A DNA stretch of 9,264 bases from IMG/VR virus record IMGVR_UViG_2548876863_000017, one strand, 5' to 3'. The notes beneath the pieces are model-generated. The model was not told the origin of the DNA. It worked only from the letters and a program-made list of their open reading frames with translations, and did not search any database. This stretch comes from a virus. Lineage: Duplodnaviria; Heunggongvirae; Uroviricota; Caudoviricetes. A program made the position numbers and the translations under genes. This document shows, piece by piece, positions 1 to 9,264 of this stretch (position 1 is its first letter; each line of letters opens with the position of its first letter).

Positions 1-2
1 GT

Positions 3-917
3 CATCGGGCATTATCTGAACATAAAACACTATCAATAAGTTGGAGTCATTACCGATTTAATATTAATAATTCCTCAGTTACTTATATTGATATTGACTC
101 CAATGATACAGACCATATTACTATTGGTATCGACAACCAAGAACCAATAGAATTACCTGCGAACTATAAAGACAAAGAACTCGTCCGTACTATCATTAAT
201 GACAACATAGTTGAGAAGACTCATGATATCAATAACAAGGAAATGATCTTCAGCGCATTAAAAGAAATATATGATGGAGATCCTGGTTTTATCTTCGATA
301 AGATATCACACAAACTCAGACATACGGTAACGGAATTTGATGAGAGCGGGAAAAGCGAACCAACGGACTTATTTACCTGGTACGGTAAAGATAAAAAAGG
401 CGACTCTCTCGCTATTGTAATTAAAAATAAAAACGGAAATGATTACTTATCTCTCGGTTACTACGATCAGGACGACTACCACATTCAAAGAGGAATTCGT
501 ATTAATGGTGATAGTCTCACCCAATATTGTAGTGAAAACGCCAGGAGTGCTTCAGCGTGGTTTGAAAGCAGTAAAGCTATCATGGCAGAATCATTTGCAA
601 CAGGTTCCGATCATCAGGTTATAAACGAGCTCAACGGGGAAAGACTGAGAGAACCTAACGAAGTTTTTAAACGTTTAGGTCGAGCAATAAGATATAATTT
701 TCAAGTGGACGATGCAAAATTTAGACGCGATAATGTAAAAGAAATAATTTCTAATTTATTCGCTAACAAAGTTGACGTTGACCATCCTGAAAATAAATAC
801 AAAGACTTTAAGGATCTCGAAGATAACGTTGAAAAAAGACTTCAAAATCGCCAGGCGAAATATCAAAATGAAATTAATCAACTATCTGCGCCAGGTGTTA
901 ATTTTGATGATATTTAA
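3..917 (+). CDS. yfdF: 3' portion of an AT-rich hypothetical protein gene whose 5' end lies left of the window; probable yfdF homolog by synteny
   Basis: Frame 3 is open from position 3 to the TAA at 915-917. Hand translation of 3-242 gives HRALSEHKTLSISWSHYRFNINNSSVTYIDIDSNDTDHITIGIDNQEPIELPANYKDKELVRTIINDNIVEKTHDINNKEMIF with no stop, so the 224-aa track ORF (243..917) is only the tail of a longer CDS. No domain recognised. The symbol is inferred from the K-12 gene order fadL-yfdF-mlaA-yfdC-argW as I remember it, not from recognising the protein. Confidence 0.55.
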   Translation, partial: HRALSEHKTLSISWSHYRFNINNSSVTYIDIDSNDTDHITIGIDNQEPIELPANYKDKELVRTIINDNIVEKTHDINNKEMIFSALKEIYDGDPGFIFDKISHKLRHTVTEFDESGKSEPTDLFTWYGKDKKGDSLAIVIKNKNGNDYLSLGYYDQDDYHIQRGIRINGDSLTQYCSENARSASAWFESSKAIMAESFATGSDHQVINELNGERLREPNEVFKRLGRAIRYNFQVDDAKFRRDNVKEIISNLFANKVDVDHPENKYKDFKDLEDNVEKRLQNRQAKYQNEINQLSAPGVNFDDI

Positions 918-3155: not shown

Positions 3156-3230
3156 GTCCTCTTAGTTAAATGGATATAACGAGCCCCTCCTAAGGGCTAA
3201 TTGCAGGTTCGATTCCTGCAGGGGACACCA
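3156..3230 (+). tRNA. argW: tRNA-Arg, anticodon CCU (argW); probable prophage attachment site
   Basis: I folded it by hand. Acceptor stem GUCCUCU pairs with AGGGGAC (one G-U). Anticodon stem AGCCC/GGGCU has loop CUCCUAA, giving anticodon CCU. T-arm is UGCAG-GUUCGAUUC-CUGCA with the GTTCGA motif. Discriminator A and encoded CCA at 3228-3230. Total 75 nt. A P4-type integrase gene follows immediately. Confidence 0.92.
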
Positions 3231-3391: not shown

Positions 3392-4546
3392 ATGCTCACC
3401 GTTAAGCAGATTGAAGCAGCAAAGCCGAAAGAAAAACCATACCGCCTTCTCGATGGTAATGGCCTGTACCTTTATGTCCCTGTATCCGGGAAAAAGGTAT
3501 GGCAGCTTCGCTATAAGATTGACGGTAAGGAGAAAATCCTGACCGTCGGAAAATACCCGCTTATGACTTTGCAGGAGGCAAGGGATAAGGCATGGACCGC
3601 GAGGAAAGACATCTCGGTTGGCATCGATCCGGTAAAGGCGAAAAAGGCTTCGTCTAACAACAATTCCTTTAGTGCGATTTACAAGGAATGGTACGAGCAC
3701 AAGAAGCAAGTATGGTCAGTAGGGTATGCGACTGAACTTGCAAAAATGTTTGATGACGACATTTTACCTATCATCGGCGGCCTTGAAATTCAGGATATTG
3801 AGCCAATGCAACTGCTGGAAGTAATCCGCAGATTTGAAGATCGCGGTGCAATGGAACGAGCCAATAAAGCCCGCAGAAGATGCGGCGAGGTTTTCCGTTA
3901 CGCTATTGTCACCGGAAGGGCTAAATATAACCCGGCACCTGACCTTGCTGACGCCATGAAGGGATACCGCAAGAAAAACTTCCCGTTTCTTCCTGCAGAC
4001 CAGATCCCGGCATTTAACAAAGCACTGGCAACATTTTCAGGAAGTATCGTATCGCTCATTGCGACCAAAGTTTTACGCTACACAGCCCTAAGAACGAAAG
4101 AGCTTCGTTCCATGCTATGGAAGAACGTCGATTTTGAAAACAGGATTATCACCATCGACGCCAGTGTGATGAAGGGTCGCAAAATTCATGTGGCTCCTAT
4201 GTCAGACCAGGTGGTTGAACTTCTCACTACGCTAAGCTCTATCACCAAACCAGTATCAGAGTTTGTTTTTGCCGGGCGCAACGATAAGAAAAAGCCAATC
4301 TGCGAGAACGCGGTATTACTTGTGATCAAACAAATCGGCTATGAAGGTCTGGAAAGCGGTCACGGATTCAGGCATGAATTCAGCACGATTATGAACGAGC
4401 ACGAATGGCCTGCTGATGCTATTGAAGTGCAACTGGCACATGCCAACGGCGGATCTGTGCGCGGGATTTACAACCATGCTCAGTATCTCGATAAGCGCAG
4501 AGAAATGATGCAGTGGTGGGCTGATTGGCTAGATTGGAAAATATGA
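3392..4546 (+). CDS. intS: P4-type tyrosine integrase (site-specific recombinase), IntS-like
   Basis: N-terminus MLTVKQIEAAKPKEKPYRLLDGNGLYLYV... is the typical P4-family arm-binding domain. The C-terminal catalytic domain has an HxxR motif (HGFRHEF) and a candidate catalytic Tyr (GIYNHAQYLDK). It lies immediately 3' of a tRNA. The track ORF starts 12 codons earlier (ATG 3356), but ATG 3392 gives the canonical family N-terminus and a 384-aa product. The intS symbol is by analogy to the K-12 argW-adjacent integrase. Confidence 0.88.
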   Translation: MLTVKQIEAAKPKEKPYRLLDGNGLYLYVPVSGKKVWQLRYKIDGKEKILTVGKYPLMTLQEARDKAWTARKDISVGIDPVKAKKASSNNNSFSAIYKEWYEHKKQVWSVGYATELAKMFDDDILPIIGGLEIQDIEPMQLLEVIRRFEDRGAMERANKARRRCGEVFRYAIVTGRAKYNPAPDLADAMKGYRKKNFPFLPADQIPAFNKALATFSGSIVSLIATKVLRYTALRTKELRSMLWKNVDFENRIITIDASVMKGRKIHVAPMSDQVVELLTTLSSITKPVSEFVFAGRNDKKKPICENAVLLVIKQIGYEGLESGHGFRHEFSTIMNEHEWPADAIEVQLAHANGGSVRGIYNHAQYLDKRREMMQWWADWLDWKI

Positions 4547-4607
4547 TAACTATGATATTATCATTATTTACAACAATAAAGTTAACATACACTTTTGAGA
4601 CTTAGAT

Positions 4608-5699
4608 GTGATTAAAAAAAACCTAGAATCCATACAATTTCTTAGAGCGGTGGCAGTTTTGTTGGTGGTTCTATTCCACTACCGTTTTGATGCAGAATCT
4701 TTGATAGCAAACTCAAAGATAATTTTCTTCAATGGATCTATTGGGGTCGACCTTTTCTTTGTTATAAGTGGATTCATAATTTACTATGTTACCGACAACA
4801 ACAAAAAAGGCATTTTCGAGTCAGCATCGTTTATATTAAAGCGAGTAATTAGGGTTTTACCGCCTTATCTTTTAATATCATTTATTTTTGTTTATTTCGG
4901 TAATAAAGATTATATAAAGTTAATACAGTCAATCTCATTCATCCCATTATCTAATAAAGAACCTCCTTTTTATGGATACCCCTCTCTTGTTGTTGGATGG
5001 TCGCTTAACTATGAGATTTACTTCTACATCCTTGCGGCCATTGGGATAATGTTTTTTGGAAAGTGCAAATGGCTTGTTATATCAACATCAATAGTGTCAT
5101 TGATAATGGTGCTGGCATTAATAAACGGAAACATATCATTATCTACCAGTGTGGACTACAACATTAATAGTAGTTACCTTTCGATGGCAACAAATAGTAT
5201 TATTTTAGATTTCACTTTAGGTGTTGCGTGTGGATACTTAGCTAAGCGTGACAATAAGGTTAGCAATACAGCTGTAATAACACTATCTATAGTTTCTATT
5301 GCTATATTTATTATGTGTCTAATGGGTATTTTTAGGTCTGAGCATGGCCCTATGTTTTGGGGGTTGTCGTCATTCTTTTTGGTGCTATCATTTATTGAGC
5401 TAGAAAAGAGAAGCATTTTATATTTTCCTAAGATTCTTATAGTAATTGGCAACATGTCATTTTCAATATATTTAGTTCACATTCCGTGTCTTGTGCTATG
5501 TTATTATTTATTCAATAACATACATCCACTTTTCAACCTAGATAATAAACCTTTACTTATATTTCTATCATCATTAATAGCAACATGCATTTCTTCGTTT
5601 TTTTATTATCATTTAGTAGAGCGATATCTTTGTGAATATTTGAGAAAGTCCATTTTCTCAGCATTATTTATATTTAAAATTCATTCAAGATCTAATTGA
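4608..5699 (+). CDS. Acyltransferase-3 (AT3) family integral membrane protein; candidate phage-encoded O-antigen O-acetyltransferase (Oac/OafA-like) for lysogenic conversion
   Basis: 363-aa polytopic hydrophobic protein. The N-terminal helix carries the AT3 signature spacing of a conserved Arg and His ([14 protein letters not shown]: R13, 10 residues, H24). Position between int and tailspike is where Sf6 carries oac and P22 carries gtrABC (from memory). Start is GTG at 4608: an in-frame TGA sits at 4596-4598 and no in-frame ATG precedes the conserved motif. Only a weak SD (GAGA). Very AT-rich. Substrate and function are inferred. Confidence 0.78.
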
Positions 5700-7640
5700 T
5701 ATATACTTCTTAGCTGTCGACATCCATGGATAGGTTGTCGACGGAAGGTTTTTAAAATGAATTATTGTTTCTCCATTTGTTCCTATTGTCACATATGAGT
5801 TATCTGCACCAAAAGAAATTGTATTAAATCTTGTCATCCTTCCTTGGTACAAAACAGAATTAGAACCATCTGTTGATATTGCTCTAAATTCATATGTACA
5901 ATCACCGTCAAAATATATAGGAGTTATCGCAAATACCTCTTCTCCAGTGTAAGTCAGAGAGTCAATGCGATAGTTGCAGCAGTACTTAACATTATCATCA
6001 ATTGGGATTTCAGCAGTAGGATAAACAAATGGTAGCTGTGTTTTTAAGTTAATTAAGACTGAATTCTTGAATGTATCAGTATTAACAAGTTTTATATTTG
6101 GAAGAGATGTTCCATATTCTGAAACAGATATTTCAGCATTAACAAGGCCATACATGACAACCATGTCATGTATGTTAAACATCCATCCACCATCACCTAT
6201 CTTTAGAAGATGTGATTTAAAGTCGCCATCTGTTTTTCCCAATACTGTTTTAACATTCTCACAGTATATATTATTGAGATTTGTACTAAAGTTCTCACCA
6301 TTAATAGTGATCGCTCTATTCATTTGCTCGAAGGCGCTTCCAGAGAATGTTACATTCTGTGTATTATTTTGAGGGTAAGATGAATTGAATGGTTCAGAAA
6401 GTAAAACACCTAGATCCCTACCTGATATTTTACCTTTGAATGCAACGTTATTTGTTGCACGACCAAGGAATACAGGATACAAGCCTTTAACAGTATCATG
6501 GTCATCAATTATGCAGACATCATATTCAGGGTAAAATCCCTGAACTGAACTTATGGCGATTGCACACCTATAAAATGACACGTCTTTTATATAACACCCT
6601 AACGTAAAGCATCTAAGATTGAAGCAATTTGAAATACCAATGAATTGTATTCCTTCAAATGAAGAGTTTCTCACAATTGCATTGGCGATACAATCCTGAT
6701 CAGAAAGTCCTGATGTATTTGATGTGATCTGGCCTGATAAAAAATACCCTGTTTCAAAAAGAGGAGTAGTTGTAGTGTCAAGATCGGAAACAATTGTTGT
6801 CTGATCACCAACGAAAGCAGTATTAGAAGAAAATATAGTTTTCTGATTTAATGTATAAACGTAATTACCCAATCCTATTTTTCTTCGCTGACCATAGCTA
6901 CCTAACCCTGCGGCTATTGCTGCTTTCTGAAATGCAGGAGAAGAATCGAAATCCGTCTTTTGCTTCGCTGGATATGCGCCAAACCTATCAACATGCAAAG
7001 GAAGTGTCGTAACCCATTTGCTACCAAGCGAATCAATAAACCATGAACCACCATCTGTTTGACCTGGAATTCCAGTTTCACCAGTTCTTCGCATGATATT
7101 TGTTGCATGTGCAGTATTAAATGCGCCTACAGAATCAGCGTGATACTTTACAATAGTCATTGTTTTAATTGCAGATGGAAATGAAGAGGATAATGCAGTT
7201 TCAAAATCTGGAACATACATTGAAGATGCCAAATCATTCATATTGGCATTACCATAGCCAACCAAATAGGCACCATAACTGCCGGCAAGATCTTGCCTTA
7301 ATTGGTCAGGGTCATACTTCAACACATTAGGAAAATAGAACTGCTTCGCACCATATGCATCATAAACAGCCATAGAATGGCCTTGCACGGTAACGAATTT
7401 GGCAATCTGTCCGTTATATACCGGGTAACCAGCAGCGTTAATGATGATTGGTTGCGATACAGGAACATGAGAGCCGTCTTCGTTCTCCACATAAACCTGA
7501 ATCTGGTTTTCAGGATTTACCGGGTCAGTGTCAATTTTACCGATATAAATTTTGCCATTGGCAACCGCTTTAAAAGAACGAGCCATAGTGAAGAGTTGCG
7601 AAGGCATGCTTACCACAACATTTGCGGTGATATCTGACAT
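5685..7640 (-). CDS. Tailspike protein: P22-family N-terminal head-binding domain fused to an unrecognised, probably beta-helical, receptor-binding/depolymerase C-terminal domain
   Basis: From the ATG at 7640 (GGAG SD 7-8 nt upstream) the product begins [113 protein letters not shown]. From memory this matches the conserved N-terminal domain of P22 gp9 and the Sf6/HK620 tailspikes. The remaining roughly 540 residues do not resemble the P22 gp9 body as I remember it. The track ORF starts 16 codons upstream (ATG 7688), which I consider an over-extension. The 3' end overlaps the acyltransferase 3' end by 15 bp. Confidence 0.85.
5714..5753 (+). terminator. Possible weak intrinsic terminator for the acyltransferase transcript, embedded in the 3' coding end of the convergent tailspike gene
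   Basis: CTGTCGAC (5714-5721) can pair with GTCGACGG (5737-5744) as an 8-bp stem with one G-U. The 15-nt loop contains the perfect palindrome ATCCATGGAT. A TTTTT run at 5749-5753 follows, but 4 nt after the stem. Starts 15 nt after the acyltransferase stop. Geometry is imperfect for a canonical terminator. Confidence 0.25.
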
Positions 7641-7761
7641 TTCATTGCTCCAGACGAATGATATGATGCAACCATGATGTGATTGCATACCGAAATGGTA
7701 CTATTGAGTATTTATCCAGTAGGTTACGATGCCATTCCACCCAACTGGTGAGGCATCAAGG
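7641..7761. promoter_or_regulatory. Divergent regulatory region between the tailspike and mnt-like genes; candidate promoters and operator
   Basis: 121-bp AT-rich spacer between divergent start codons. Inverted repeat ATGCAA (7666-7671) / TTGCAT (7683-7688) with an 11-bp spacer. Repeated ATGAT(G) motifs at 7658-7667 and 7674-7679. A CACC-N5-GGTG dyad at 7738-7750 loosely resembles the CCAC/GTGG half-sites of the P22 mnt operator as I recall it. No promoter hexamers could be assigned confidently. Confidence 0.4.
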
Positions 7762-8028
7762 ATGTACAGCAAATACGACGAGGCGCAGTTTCACTTGAGA
7801 CTTCCGCATGAACTCCACGCGAAAATTAAGCAGCGTGCGAAGATGAATAACAGATCGCTGAACTCAGAGATAATTGCAGCGATTGAAGAATCATTGGATA
7901 AACAAAGCTCTGCATCAGTTTACATTGACGATGCAGAGCGTATGGCAGAACAACAATCTGATATGGTTAAGAAAATTGTCTTTGATACGCTTAAGACCAT
8001 GTATAGCAATAATAAAAAGGAAACATAG
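7762..8028 (+). CDS. mnt: Mnt-like ribbon-helix-helix (Arc/MetJ superfamily) repressor
   Basis: 88-aa product MYSKYDEAQFHLRLPHELHAKIKQRAKMNNRSLNSEIIAAIEESL...DDAERMAEQQSDMVKKIVFDTLKTMY. It aligns by eye with P22 Mnt as I remember it, both in the N-terminal RHH DNA-binding part (FNFRMPMEVREKLKFRAEANGRSMNSELLQIVQDAL) and the C-terminal tetramerisation helix (NDAERLADEQSELVKKMVFDTLKDLY). GAGG SD at 7750-7753, 8 nt upstream of ATG 7762. The track ORF starts at ATG 7729, 11 codons upstream; I prefer 7762 from the homology. Confidence 0.82.
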   Translation: MYSKYDEAQFHLRLPHELHAKIKQRAKMNNRSLNSEIIAAIEESLDKQSSASVYIDDAERMAEQQSDMVKKIVFDTLKTMYSNNKKET

Positions 8029-8098
8029 AAATCTAGTTTCCGGCTAAAATGGCATTACCTTCATGATATCCTGTGAAAAACTAAGGAGAGTTAACCAT

Positions 8099-8584
8099 AT
8101 GAAAAAATCACTGTTAATTATCCCGCTTCTGCTGGTTGGATGCGCAAAAGTAAGTGACTATCAAGCAAGTTGCGAACAACGCTATCAAAAGCTTAGCGAT
8201 ATGGCTAATTGCCTTGATGCCAGTGTGAAGAACGACTCACGCATGGCATCAGCACCAACACCTAAGCTGTATGTCCTTGCTGCAAAGATGCTCGGGCAAG
8301 GTGTCGATGAAGGCAAGATAAGTGACGCACAGGCAAGACTTGAGCTTCAGAATCTTTATGTTCAATTACAAAGCCAAGAACAAGCCCAACAAATAGCACA
8401 AAGCCAAGCATTCCAGCAGGCTTTATTGAATTATCAGGCTGTAAACACAATGCAAGCGATCGAGCAAAAAGCGCGCCAGCCTGTTATAACTCAACCTTAC
8501 CCAACACGCGTTGACACATATACAAACTGCAATTCAGGATTTGGAAACACGGTAACATGCAACAGTAGCAGTAATATCAGGTAG
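8099..8584 (+). CDS. Predicted outer-membrane lipoprotein of unknown function, Gln-rich; moron in the slot where P22 carries sieA; candidate superinfection-exclusion or lysogenic-conversion gene
   Basis: Strong SD AAGGAG (8083-8088), then ATG 8099. The product starts MKKSLLIIPLLLVGCAK: a type II signal peptide with lipobox LVGC, and Ala at +2 after the lipidated Cys, which predicts outer-membrane sorting. The mature part has a Gln/Ala-rich probable helical segment (LQSQEQAQQIAQSQAFQQALLNYQ) and a Cys-containing C-terminus. No family recognised. The track ORF (8063) is extended upstream by 12 codons. Confidence 0.75.
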   Translation: MKKSLLIIPLLLVGCAKVSDYQASCEQRYQKLSDMANCLDASVKNDSRMASAPTPKLYVLAAKMLGQGVDEGKISDAQARLELQNLYVQLQSQEQAQQIAQSQAFQQALLNYQAVNTMQAIEQKARQPVITQPYPTRVDTYTNCNSGFGNTVTCNSSSNIR

Positions 8585-8598
8585 TTATATCTTATCTT

Positions 8599-9264
8599 TT
8601 ATTGCTGTTCTGCTGTAATTTGACTTGAAAGTATAGGGCGTATCGCATTTGCAGCATTATTTAGCGCTCTTTCATAAGCTGGCGTTCCAGTTTTAGTGTT
8701 TGCCAGACGTAAGAGAGCATTCCTTGCTGCTTTGGACTCATACAAGCGCATCATTGCACCAAAACCAGCCTCAAGCCCCATTGATACGCCAAGGGTCGCA
8801 GTTGCGCCAATCGTCCTTATCCTGTTGGCTTGCGATTGCCCCGTCTGAGTTACTACATTTGCGGTGTCTGACCTTGCTGTTTGCTGTAGAACTTCATGAA
8901 GAGCATCAAGCTCTTTTATGTGCTTTCCAGAAAAAATAGTGTTGTAAATTTCACCGCCTGACTGAGATTTCAGCTTATTAACTTCAGTGATGAACTTGGC
9001 TGGAGAGTCCCCGGCCTTTTCCGCTATTTTGCTGACGTAAGCTGCACGCATAGCATCTTTCCCCTTATCATCCAGTGCGCTCCAGATTCGTTTCACGTCA
9101 GATGGTTTTCTGCTTAATACAACGGTATTTATAAGTTCAGGACTGGCTTCACTGCTTGCCTTGTTGAGCTTGTTGGCAATGTTTTTATTAAGCACCTTAT
9201 TATAAACGTTGTAAGCGTACAGCGAGGGCCGTATTGACGGGGATGTGTTATTCAGCTGGCAGTG
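8599..9264 (-). CDS. 3' portion of a phage late gene (5' end beyond the right edge); possibly an ejection/injection protein (P22 gp16-like) by synteny
   Basis: I translated the - strand frame from 9264 down to the track start (GTG at 9195) and found no stop (...[33 protein letters not shown]...), so the track ORF start is an artefact of the window edge. Stop is at 8599-8601. Same orientation as the tailspike and convergent with the lipoprotein. The functional call is from position only; I do not recognise the sequence. Confidence 0.5.

What the first reader, a model, noticed from the sequence alone, without database searches (positions are those of the whole stretch)
4608..7640. Receptor-modification gene and receptor-recognition gene are convergent and overlap by 15 bp
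Seen in sequence: the acyltransferase stop (TGA 5697-5699) lies inside the tailspike 3' end (stop codon TCA on the + strand at 5685-5687), so the two convergent genes share 15 bp and leave no room for independent terminators. This tight packing, together with the composition difference between the two genes, suggests the acyltransferase was inserted against the end of the tailspike gene. The pairing is functionally meaningful: phages typically modify the O-antigen that their own tailspike recognises in order to exclude relatives. Convergent overlapping transcription may also cause antisense interference between lysogenic (acyltransferase) and lytic (tailspike) expression.
Basis: partly seen in the sequence, partly recalled or inferred. 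Interest (0 to 1): 0.5.

Follow-up and report, generated by a model that had tools for sequence, protein, structure and literature searches.

The report
Prophage tailspike and acyltransferase overlap
In an E. coli prophage, the gene for the tail protein that recognises the cell surface and a gene that probably modifies that surface really do overlap tail-to-tail by 15 bases, but this is a compact version of a known phage layout, and the two genes were acquired together rather than one being inserted next to the other.

Summary
The AT3 acyltransferase ORF (4608-5699, +) and the tailspike ORF (5685-7640, -) converge and share 15 bp, codon-aligned on opposite strands. The locus is a P22/Sf6-like (Lederbergvirus) prophage at tRNA-Arg argW, ordered int -> acyltransferase -> <- tailspike. 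This is the known layout of Shigella phage Sf6 (int-oac-tailspike), but Sf6 has a 33-bp spacer with a terminator.

The insertion inference is not supported. The low-GC block (GC3 0.25-0.31) covers the acyltransferase and the tailspike receptor-binding domain together. The composition breaks lie at int|acyltransferase and inside the tailspike, after the head-binding domain. The same pair, with a 15- or 12-bp overlap, occurs in an Obesumbacterium-type prophage and in Buttiauxella, on different tail adaptors. DNA homology is limited to about 4560-7230, dS exceeds 1, and dN/dS is 0.09-0.21. So the two genes form an old, co-inherited cassette.

"No room for terminators" is only half right. A conserved hairpin with a U-run (5714-5753), the most stable local structure in the cassette, lies 15 nt after the acyltransferase stop, inside the tailspike ORF. 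It is absent from a tailspike homologue that has no acyltransferase. What the acyltransferase modifies and any antisense effects remain untested. This is a new member of a known kind, of modest interest.

The parts
3156..3230 (+). tRNA-Arg (CCT), argW; chromosomal side of the prophage junction (attL side)
   Evidence: ARAGORN; Rfam tRNA, 63 bits. RefSeq contexts have the same order yfdC - tRNA-Arg - intS.
3392..4546 (+). Prophage integrase IntS (Sf6/HK620 type)
   Evidence: Pfam Arm-DNA-bind_3, Phage_int_M and Phage_integrase. About 95-97% DNA identity to the int genes of Sf6, HK620 and CUS-3. PGAP coordinates transferred from L001.
4534..4564 (+). Promoter-like sites (TTGGAA-16-TATTAT; TGGAAA-18-TATCAT) across the int stop and the 21%-GC spacer 4547-4607. 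Candidate acyltransferase promoter.
   Evidence: Consensus scan only; spacer GC 0.213. The region is not conserved in L008/L009, so this is weak.
4608..5699 (+). AT3-only integral-membrane acyltransferase (363 aa, GTG start), the presumed lysogenic-conversion gene
   Evidence: Pfam PF01757, E 2.5e-31, residues 7-334. phrog_3333 O-acetyltransferase, 1.1e-58. About 9-10 hydrophobic segments. Conserved R13, H24, GxxVDxFFxxSG, KRxxRxxP and WxLxxE columns. dN/dS 0.15-0.21.
5685..5699 (.). 15-bp convergent overlap, codon-aligned antisense (TCA AGA TCT AAT TGA)
   Evidence: Direct reading. The same register and a 15/12-bp overlap occur in L008 and L009.
5714..5753 (+). Hairpin (5714-5744, two GTCGAC arms, -16.5 kcal/mol), then AAGG and U5 (5749-5753). 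Candidate terminator or 3'-end stabiliser of the acyltransferase mRNA, embedded in the tailspike ORF.
   Evidence: RNAfold z = -2.3 to -3.5 in three lineages. Most stable of 1039 40-nt windows on + in the cassette, rank 1 in L008 and rank 2 in L009. The arms are built from rare NNG/TCG codons (third-position G = 12%) in all three lineages, even where the amino acid differs. The hairpin is absent in L006, which lacks the acyltransferase.
5685..7295 (-). Tailspike receptor-binding part (residues ~116-651), predicted beta-helix plus C-terminal beta domain. Very rare sequence family.
   Evidence: Only 6 protein clusters at E<=1e-5 among 5.8 billion. No Pfam or PDB sequence hit. AlphaFold pLDDT 63.5 with a beta-rich core; best Foldseek hit is the Sf6 tailspike 2vbe, E 2e-4, TM 0.40. 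dN/dS 0.09-0.16.
7296..7640 (-). Tailspike N-terminal head-binding (adaptor) domain, conserved among P22-like phages
   Evidence: Pfam PF09008, 221.7 bits, residues 1-113. About 95% DNA identity to Sf6, CUS-3 and HK620-group phages. GC 0.43 against 0.36 for the rest of the gene.
4560..7230 (.). Approximate extent of the co-inherited low-GC cassette (acyltransferase plus receptor-binding domain)
   Evidence: Sliding-window DNA identity to L008 and L009 rises above background only between about 4560-4600 and about 7200-7250. The GC and GC3 breaks fall at the same places.

Best explanation
The window holds the left end of a P22/Sf6-like prophage integrated at argW. The order is integrase, then an AT3 membrane acyltransferase transcribed in the int direction, then the last gene of the late operon (the tailspike) coming the other way. 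This is the Sf6-type serotype-conversion layout.

The acyltransferase and the receptor-binding part of the tailspike together form one old, low-GC, two-gene cassette. It has been swapped as a unit onto different phage tail adaptors. The breakpoints are just upstream of the acyltransferase and at the adaptor/receptor-binding junction inside the tailspike.

The 15-bp overlap is an inherited property of that cassette. The usual 30-65-bp spacer with a bidirectional terminator is missing. The poorly conserved C-terminal tail of the acyltransferase reads into the antisense of the conserved tailspike C-terminus until the first stop.

A conserved hairpin with a U-run, placed 15 nt past the acyltransferase stop and encoded within the tailspike's last 25 codons, most likely ends or stabilises the acyltransferase transcript.

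Functionally (inferred, by analogy with Sf6 Oac), the acyltransferase is expressed from the prophage and acylates the surface polysaccharide that the tailspike binds or cleaves. This would mask the receptor against superinfection by the same or related phages.
For: Shown:
- Gene identities.
- Context at argW with an Sf6-like int and head-binding domain.
- Sf6 has the same order, with a 33-bp spacer and an annotated terminator.
- Homologous acyltransferase/tailspike pairs occur in L008 (74% / 65% aa identity, 15-bp overlap) and L009 (54% / 64%, 12-bp overlap).
- These pairs sit on different N-terminal adaptors and among different neighbouring genes.
- DNA homology is confined to about 4560-7230.
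- Both genes share low GC3 in all three lineages.
- dS>1 with dN/dS 0.09-0.21, so the linkage is old and both genes are under purifying selection.
- Decayed prophages keep the acyltransferase plus the adjoining tailspike 3' part (F829; Buttiauxella).
- The hairpin is the top-ranked local structure, is conserved through rare G-ending codons, and is absent where no acyltransferase is present.
- In the overlap, the one difference between the window and L008 is synonymous for the tailspike (AGA/AGG Arg) and changes Ser to Pro in the acyltransferase. The tailspike end is therefore the constrained partner.

Against: - The acyltransferase substrate and the tailspike receptor are unknown, and no experiment links them.
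- The linkage is not absolute. A 64%-identical tailspike sits in a P22-like prophage with no acyltransferase (L006, next to torS). A 40% relative also lacks one (L007).
- Acyltransferases of the same subfamily pair with other receptor-binding genes: Xenorhabdus (51%) with a distant RBD (28% identity over 240 aa), separated by a normal spacer and terminator, and P0004 (57%) next to a tail-fibre assembly gene.
- Only three independent lineages carry the cassette.
- The U-run begins 4-5 nt after the stem, so the hairpin is not a canonical intrinsic terminator.
- The palindrome partly reflects a repeated Ser-Thr dipeptide in a conserved protein segment.
- The promoter prediction is weak and not conserved.
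Confidence: 0.7

Rival explanations
1. One reading: the acyltransferase is a later, separate insertion (a moron) that landed against the 3' end of a pre-existing tailspike gene in this prophage. On this view the overlap and a composition difference are scars of that insertion.
For: The acyltransferase is the most AT-rich gene in total GC (0.316 against 0.36 for the receptor-binding domain). The region between int and tailspike is a known variable site in P22-like phages (PMC10408124). Over long timescales the acyltransferase subfamily has indeed been combined with other receptor-binding genes.
Against: GC3 is as low or lower in the receptor-binding domain (0.25) than in the acyltransferase (0.31), and the breaks flank both genes. 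The same junction, overlap register and hairpin are present in two other lineages at dS>1 on unrelated backbones, so the junction predates this prophage. What was swapped into the P22-like backbone is the acyltransferase plus the receptor-binding domain together.
Confidence: 0.07
2. The overlap exists for regulation. Convergent transcription through the shared 3' ends gives transcriptional interference or antisense RNA pairing, so that lytic (late-operon) transcription silences the acyltransferase, or acyltransferase transcription dampens leaky tailspike expression in lysogens.
For: No terminator-like element for the tailspike transcript was found on the - strand downstream of 5685, so late transcripts probably run antisense through the acyltransferase. 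The overlap has been retained over long divergence. A functional antisense RNA exists in the tailspike region of the P22-like prophage BTP1 (PMC7067206).
Against: Relatives do well with a spacer and a bidirectional terminator: Sf6 33 bp, SI8 63 bp, the second F829 cassette 31 bp, Xenorhabdus about 30 bp. The conserved hairpin just past the acyltransferase stop argues that transcription is stopped rather than allowed to run on. The BTP1 asRNA lies at the tailspike 5' end and is unrelated. No RNA data are available and no Rfam family matches.
Confidence: 0.15
3. The adjacency has no functional meaning. The acyltransferase is a generic host-benefit moron that acylates some other glycan (capsule, ECA, peptidoglycan, exopolysaccharide). 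It sits beside the tailspike only because the end of the late operon next to int/att tolerates cargo. Co-inheritance then reflects physical proximity alone.
For: AT3 proteins have many substrates (PMC9558356), and databases name the relatives 'ExoZ' or 'exopolysaccharide production protein'. The acyltransferase remains intact and 100% identical in prophages whose tailspike is broken by IS1 or truncated, so its benefit does not depend on a working phage. Its subfamily also pairs with other receptor-binding genes.
Against: In every context recovered, acyltransferases of this subfamily lie directly beside a receptor-binding gene: a tailspike or a tail-fibre/assembly gene (more distant ones). The characterised precedent with the same layout, Sf6 Oac, is annotated as the lipopolysaccharide O-antigen acetylase next to the tailspike endorhamnosidase (annotation; that it modifies the phage's own receptor is established knowledge, not tested here). 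Both halves share a low-GC3 signature.
Confidence: 0.2

Closest known systems
Shigella phage Sf6 serotype-conversion locus: int (gene 16) - oac (gene 15) - tailspike (gene 14)
   Same: Integration at argW with a ~95% identical int and tailspike head-binding domain. The order and orientation are the same: int -> AT3-only acyltransferase -> <- tailspike. Both acyltransferases are AT3-only proteins of about 330-360 aa with no SGNH domain.
   Different: The acyltransferase is only 23% identical to Oac. The receptor-binding domains are unrelated in sequence, with only a beta-helix fold resemblance (TM 0.40). Sf6 has a 33-bp spacer with an annotated oac terminator, whereas here the genes overlap by 15 bp and the hairpin lies inside the tailspike ORF.
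Other convergent AT3/tailspike pairs in P22-like (pro)phages: Salmonella Lederbergvirus SI8, the second cassette of E. coli F829, a Xenorhabdus bovienii prophage
   Same: All have a convergent acyltransferase and a tailspike with a head-binding domain, between int and the late operon. The F829 and Xenorhabdus receptor-binding domains are distant homologues of this one (27-28% identity over 190-240 aa of the central part). The Xenorhabdus acyltransferase belongs to the same subfamily (51%).
   Different: They keep a 30-63-bp spacer, and F829 and Xenorhabdus have a GC-rich hairpin there. The SI8 acyltransferase is 34% identical and F829 AT3#2 about 26%.
gtrABC / GtrC(BTP1) O-antigen modification operons of P22, epsilon34 and BTP1
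   Same: These are prophage-expressed O-antigen modification genes beside the tailspike/att region. They limit superinfection and are mobile between phage types (PMC2629481, PMC7067206).
   Different: They use different chemistry and proteins: a bactoprenol-glucose pathway or a GtrC-family acetyltransferase in an operon with gtrA. They are not a single AT3 gene overlapping the tailspike.
Coliphage CUS-3 neuO + endosialidase tailspike; E. coli phage vB_EcoP-611R6 OafA-like gene
   Same: A polysaccharide acetyltransferase lies immediately downstream of the tailspike, between it and int, in argW-type P22-like phages.
   Different: These genes are co-directional with the tailspike. NeuO is annotated with a heptanucleotide repeat region and, from established knowledge, is not an AT3 protein. 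In 611R6 the gene abuts the tailspike head-to-tail.
Modular exchange of tailspike receptor-binding domains between phage genera
   Same: This receptor-binding domain is found on four different N-terminal parts: P22 head-binding, Tail_spike_N, and two N-termini with no Pfam domain match. This matches what is described for E. coli O-antigen-specific RBPs (PMC10408124).
   Different: Here the exchanged unit includes the downstream convergent modification gene, welded on by an overlap. I did not find this stated in the papers I read.

Membership tests
AT3 (Acyl_transf_3, PF01757) membrane-bound acyltransferases | Significant match to the family profile over the full domain | tested here: met
   109.4 bits against a 31-bit cut-off, residues 7-334 on profile 2-325/326; phrog_3333 O-acetyltransferase, 1.1e-58.
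AT3 (Acyl_transf_3, PF01757) membrane-bound acyltransferases | Polytopic membrane protein (~10 TM) with conserved TM1 Arg/His, the VDxFFxxSG motif, the RxxR motif and WxLxxE | tested here: met
   Invariant R13, H24, G43, V47, F50, F51, S54, G55, K78, R79, R82, P85, W131, L133 and E136 in an alignment that includes Sf6 Oac. About 9-10 hydrophobic segments by a Kyte-Doolittle scan. That these motifs define the family is from established knowledge of AT3 proteins (PMC9558356 was listed but not read for this point).
AT3 (Acyl_transf_3, PF01757) membrane-bound acyltransferases | Acyl transfer to a defined extracytoplasmic glycan | not testable with these tools
   No substrate information. Database names such as 'ExoZ' are transferred annotations.
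P22-like (Lederbergvirus) tailspike | N-terminal head-binding domain | tested here: met
   PF09008, 221.7 bits, residues 1-113. About 95% DNA identity to Sf6, CUS-3 and related phages.
P22-like (Lederbergvirus) tailspike | C-terminal right-handed beta-helix receptor-binding or depolymerase domain | tested here: inconclusive
   The model has mean pLDDT 63.5 with a beta-rich core. The best Foldseek hits are tailspikes and depolymerases (Sf6 2vbe, E 2e-4) but TM is only 0.40. No sequence match in Pfam or PDB.
P22-like (Lederbergvirus) tailspike | Trimeric enzyme that binds or cleaves O-antigen or capsule | not testable with these tools
   Needs biochemistry.
Sf6-type lysogenic (serotype) conversion locus | Modification gene between int and tailspike at the attL end of an argW prophage, transcribed opposite to the late operon | tested here: met
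   The order is identical to the Sf6 annotation.
Sf6-type lysogenic (serotype) conversion locus | Own promoter and terminator, allowing expression in the lysogen | tested here: inconclusive
   Only consensus-level promoter-like sites at 4534-4564, not conserved in the other lineages. The conserved hairpin and U-run at 5714-5753 is not canonical, with a 4-5-nt gap between stem and U-run.
Sf6-type lysogenic (serotype) conversion locus | The modification alters the receptor of the phage's own tailspike and blocks superinfection | not testable with these tools
   Inferred from analogy and co-inheritance only.
Antisense-regulated convergent gene pair | Overlapping transcripts with a demonstrated regulatory effect | not testable with these tools
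   No RNA data. The only known RNA family in the window is the tRNA.

The most novel reading that the evidence does not exclude
The acyltransferase and the tailspike receptor-binding domain form a portable 'recognise-and-mask' cassette. Its 3' ends are fused by the overlap, and the modifier's terminator hairpin is written into the last codons of the tailspike. Recombination therefore cannot separate receptor specificity from the matching receptor-masking function without damaging one gene. The unit has hopped between at least three unrelated tail architectures (P22-like head-binding, Tail_spike_N type, and an Obesumbacterium-prophage type), and it persists in decayed prophages.
Probability: 0.4. 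Interest if true: 0.45.

Novelty: new member of a known kind. Interest (0 to 1): 0.3.

Why it matters
Temperate phages that change the surface polysaccharide they themselves recognise shape bacterial serotypes and phage host range. This locus adds a previously uncharacterised acyltransferase/tailspike pair to that class. The closest cultured-phage relatives are about 32-34% identical, and the receptor-binding domain has only six relatives (protein clusters) among 5.8 billion.

It also gives a clean example in which the receptor-binding domain and the modification gene travel together as one unit across phage types. If the functional match is confirmed, such cassettes would help predict host range and prophage-driven serotype changes from sequence. 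The embedded hairpin would be a compact example of a transcription signal encoded inside a convergent gene. The general principle is already established from Sf6, P22 and CUS-3, so the gain is incremental.

Tried and rejected
- DNA searches of the cassette (4540-7300) against 50,697 phage records found nothing, even at blastn sensitivity. Only 2 of 5,426 complete E. coli genomes carry it.
- Scans of genome, viral and metagenome contig collections with a receptor-binding-domain profile returned only loci already found by protein look-up: L015 = L009, L016 = L008, L017 = L006. No further independent lineages were gained.
- PDB sequence searches with profiles of both proteins gave no hits. NCBIfam gave nothing for either protein.
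- The AlphaFold model from a 5-sequence alignment is only moderate (pLDDT 63.5; residues 1-120 are unreliable). The fold assignment therefore stays at 'beta-helix tailspike-like'.
It found no terminator for the tailspike strand. Folding the - strand downstream of the tailspike stop gave only a weak AU-rich hairpin without a U-run.
- Upstream regions of the three acyltransferase genes do not align, so no conserved promoter could be defined.
- Codon-identity windows did not show a clear excess of synonymous conservation at the tailspike 3' end as a whole. The signal is confined to the hairpin arms.
- I considered typing the O-antigen clusters of the two complete host genomes to test receptor matching. 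I dropped this as uninformative: n = 2, both prophages are defective, and there is no serotype database here.
- Rejected readings: the overlap as an assembly or annotation artefact, and the acyltransferase as a pseudogene (intact, dN/dS about 0.15-0.21).
Full report
**Observation.** The ORF table lists 4608..5699 (+, 363 aa, GTG start) and 5685..7688 (-, 667 aa). The sequence shows TGA at 5697-5699 on the + strand. It shows TCA at 5685-5687, which is TGA on the - strand. The shared 15 nt, TCA AGA TCT AAT TGA, read S-R-S-N-stop for the + gene and S-I-R-S-stop for the - gene, with codons exactly aligned in antisense.

Pfam Head_binding aligns from residue 1 of the 651-aa form. Homologues begin MSDITANVV. 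Other assemblies have the gene called at 651 aa. Seven independent E. coli assemblies reproduce both gene ends at >=99.9% identity.

**What the locus is.** The window runs from a partial yfdF through mlaA, yfdC and tRNA-Arg(CCT) argW (3156-3230) into a prophage. The prophage genes are:
- integrase IntS (3392-4546);
- the acyltransferase;
- the tailspike;
- an Arc/Mnt-type repressor (7729-8028);
- a lipoprotein-like ORF (8063-8584);
- the end of a P22 gp16-like DNA-transfer gene.

Megablast to phages matches only int and the first ~115 codons of the tailspike, at about 95% identity, in Sf6, CUS-3, the HK620 group and Kapi1. The backbone is therefore a P22/Sf6-like Lederbergvirus at argW. Sf6 itself has the same order and orientation: int, oac (an AT3 O-antigen acetylase), then the convergent tailspike. 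In Sf6 there is a 33-bp spacer that carries an annotated oac terminator.

**The two genes.**

*Acyltransferase.*
- It is a full-length AT3 domain protein without an SGNH domain (PF01757, 109 bits; PHROG O-acetyltransferase, 1e-58).
- It has about 9-10 hydrophobic segments and the conserved family columns shared with Sf6 Oac, although identity to Oac is only 23%.

*Tailspike.*
- It has the P22 head-binding domain (PF09008, 222 bits).
- Its remaining ~536 residues match no Pfam, NCBIfam or PDB sequence.
- They have only six relatives (protein clusters, E<=1e-5) among 5.8 billion clusters.
- A moderate AlphaFold model (pLDDT 63.5) is beta-rich. Its best structural matches are tailspikes and depolymerases (Sf6 2vbe, E 2e-4, TM 0.40).
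- The closest cultured phages are 34% identical (acyltransferase, Salmonella phage SI8) and 32% identical (receptor-binding part, phage phi G17).

**Comparative evidence.**
- The cassette DNA (4540-7300) has no blastn match in 50,697 phage records. It occurs in 2 of 5,426 complete E. coli genomes.
- The nearest acyltransferase relatives outside E. coli lie beside relatives of this same receptor-binding domain, convergent and overlapping.
  - In an Obesumbacterium-type prophage (L008, identical to IMG/VR contig L016), the acyltransferase is 74% identical and the tailspike domain 65%, with a 15-bp overlap.
  - In Buttiauxella gaviniae (L009), the figures are 54% and 64%, with a 12-bp overlap in the same codon register.
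- The tailspike N-termini differ completely among the three: head-binding, an N-terminus with no Pfam domain match, and Tail_spike_N.
- The neighbouring genes also differ: int, a lysis cassette, and host metabolic genes.
- Sliding-window DNA identity between the window and either relative rises above background only from about 4560-4600 to about 7200-7250.
- dS exceeds 1 and dN/dS is 0.09-0.21 for both genes.

The two genes are therefore an old, co-inherited unit under purifying selection that has been grafted onto different tails.

Decayed prophages are consistent with this.
- E. coli F829 retains the acyltransferase plus only the last 165 codons of the tailspike. These are followed by a boundary-type sequence and a second, different acyltransferase/tailspike pair.
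- Buttiauxella retains the acyltransferase plus an N-terminally truncated tailspike among host genes.
- OkiPb01684 has IS1 in the head-binding region.

The linkage is not absolute.
- A 64% tailspike relative lies in a P22-like prophage directly against torS, with no acyltransferase.
- A 40% relative also lacks one.
- The acyltransferase subfamily also pairs with a distant receptor-binding domain in Xenorhabdus and with a tail-fibre assembly gene.

**Composition.** Total GC is 0.316 for the acyltransferase, 0.36 for the receptor-binding part, 0.43 for the head-binding part and 0.47 for int. At third codon positions the values are 0.31, 0.25, 0.43 and 0.51, and the same pattern holds in L008 and L009. 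The composition breaks lie at int|acyltransferase and inside the tailspike, not between the two genes. Its own refutation criterion (co-inheritance with uniform composition) is largely met.

**Anatomy of the junction.**
- The tailspike C-terminus ([15 protein letters not shown]) is identical in L008 and recognisable even at 40% overall identity. The acyltransferase tail after the last membrane segment is variable.
- Within the overlap, the window/L008 difference is synonymous for the tailspike and Ser->Pro for the acyltransferase. The acyltransferase frame therefore runs passively into a constrained tailspike end until the first antisense stop.
- Fifteen nt past the acyltransferase stop, a hairpin spans 5714-5744. 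It has two GTCGAC arms and -16.5 kcal/mol, and it is followed by AAGG and U5.
- It is the most stable of 1039 40-nt windows on the + strand of the cassette. It ranks first in L008 and second in L009.
- Its arms use NNG and TCG codons in all three lineages, although G occupies only 12% of third positions and the residue before the first arm differs (P/S/T).
- In L009, a Thr->Ser change closes the stem's one mismatch.
- The tailspike relative without an acyltransferase encodes the same peptide region with TCA/AGT codons and has no hairpin.

I infer that this hairpin is the 3'-end element of the acyltransferase mRNA, embedded in the tailspike ORF. It is not canonical, because the U-run starts 4-5 nt after the stem, so this remains a hypothesis (about 0.6). 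No terminator-like element was found for the tailspike strand.

Related pairs keep a spacer:
- Sf6, 33 bp;
- SI8, 63 bp;
- the second F829 cassette, 31 bp with a GGGGGCTAAGCCCCC hairpin;
- Xenorhabdus, about 30 bp with a GC-rich hairpin.

**Mechanism.**

*Shown:*
- the gene identities;
- the Sf6-type layout;
- co-inheritance of the acyltransferase and the receptor-binding domain with their overlap;
- purifying selection on both genes;
- the conserved hairpin.

*Inferred:*
- the acyltransferase is expressed in the lysogen from a promoter in or near the 61-bp, 21%-GC spacer (weak evidence);
- it acylates the polysaccharide recognised by the tailspike, which blocks superinfection as Oac does for Sf6;
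- the hairpin ends or stabilises its mRNA;
- late transcripts read antisense into the acyltransferase during lytic growth, with unknown consequence.

**Rivals.**
- Separate insertion of the acyltransferase in this prophage: about 0.07, contradicted.
- The overlap exists for antisense regulation: about 0.15, untested. Spacer-containing relatives and the hairpin argue against it. The BTP1 asRNA (PMC7067206) is a precedent only in the loosest sense.
- The adjacency has no functional link: about 0.2. It is favoured by the acyltransferase persisting without a working phage, and disfavoured by its consistent placement beside receptor-binding genes.

**Comparison with the known, and novelty.** O-antigen modification genes behind the RBP of Lederberg-/Uetakeviruses are recognised (PMC10408124). 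Conversion cassettes are known to move between phage types (PMC2629481). The int/att-proximal location of seroconversion genes guided the Kapi1 study (PMC8787464). This locus is a new member of that kind, with novel sequences.

Three details are distinctive: the 3' overlap replacing the spacer, a hairpin written into the tailspike's last codons, and clear evidence that the modification gene and the receptor-binding domain were exchanged together. They are of modest interest (0.3). Nothing here contradicts current understanding.

Noticed in passing
L002 (E. coli F829, NZ_OY754443.1) 8069-12128; window equivalent breakpoint at 6201: F829 carries two acyltransferase/tailspike cassettes in tandem. 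The first is this acyltransferase plus only the last 165 codons of the tailspike. Next comes a ~50-bp sequence that is 91-96% identical to intergenic 'boundary'-type sequences in Sf101, HK542, 434 and others. Then comes a different acyltransferase (26% identity) convergent with a distant tailspike domain (27%), with a 31-bp spacer and a GGGGGCTAAGCCCCC hairpin.
   Followed up: partly
window 6149-6174: A perfect 11-bp hairpin (CATACATGACA-ACCA-TGTCATGTATG) lies inside the tailspike ORF. It is the second most stable local structure on both strands and lies about 27 nt from the F829 recombination breakpoint. The peptide here is not conserved in L008/L009 and no equally stable window ranks among their top hits, so it is probably a chance palindrome.
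   Followed up: partly
window 8063-8584 (+): A 173-aa ORF with a lipoprotein-type signal (…LLLVGC…) sits between the Mnt/Arc repressor and the DNA-transfer gene, in the 'ant moron' position. It matches phrog_6067 (unknown function, 2e-110) and has no Pfam domain. It could be another prophage-expressed surface or exclusion factor.
   Followed up: partly
L001 (E. coli OkiPb01684) 10730-11878; L014 contig end: In the only complete genome with a 100% match to the cassette, IS1A interrupts the tailspike head-binding region, and the rest of the prophage is riddled with IS3/IS100. PGAP leaves the long 3' part of the tailspike unannotated. The short-read contig L014 ends at about the same position. 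The acyltransferase is intact in all of these.
   Followed up: partly
L009 (Buttiauxella gaviniae LXEP01000003.1) 7274-10916: The acyltransferase plus an N-terminally truncated tailspike (no ATG; starts inside the Tail_spike_N domain) sit between ordinary metabolic genes, with two short ORFs with no Pfam hit upstream. This is a minimal prophage remnant that still keeps both cassette genes and their 12-bp overlap.
   Followed up: partly
L024 (Xenorhabdus bovienii JAILTK010000004.1) 6001-8945: A 51%-identical acyltransferase is interrupted (called at 266 aa, but the C-terminal part continues in frame to about 7062). It converges on a P22-type tailspike with a different receptor-binding domain, across a ~30-bp spacer holding a GC-rich hairpin flanked by A- and T-runs. 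This looks like the 'unfused' state of the junction.
   Followed up: partly
L006 (PPYF01424700.1) 6001-10443: A 64%-identical tailspike in a P22-like prophage overlaps the 3' end of the host sensor kinase gene torS by 12 bp, with no conversion gene. The prophage appears to be integrated at the torS end, with its tailspike as the terminal gene.
   Followed up: no
L004 (phage vB_EcoP-611R6) 3256-6299: In this argW Lederbergvirus, an OafA/YrhL-type acyltransferase lies co-directional with the tailspike and abuts it, sharing one coordinate (4380). This suggests co-transcription with the late operon rather than lysogen-specific expression.
   Followed up: no
window 7641-7688 (-): The tailspike ORF extends 16 codons upstream to another ATG ([16 protein letters not shown]…). 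This extension is not part of the conserved protein and probably reflects only the absence of an in-frame stop.
   Followed up: yes
window 1-917 (+): The low-GC (0.35) ORF at the window start is the C-terminal two-thirds of yfdF, a host gene of unknown function. The N-terminal ~15 residues visible in the window differ from the OkiPb01684 copy.
   Followed up: partly
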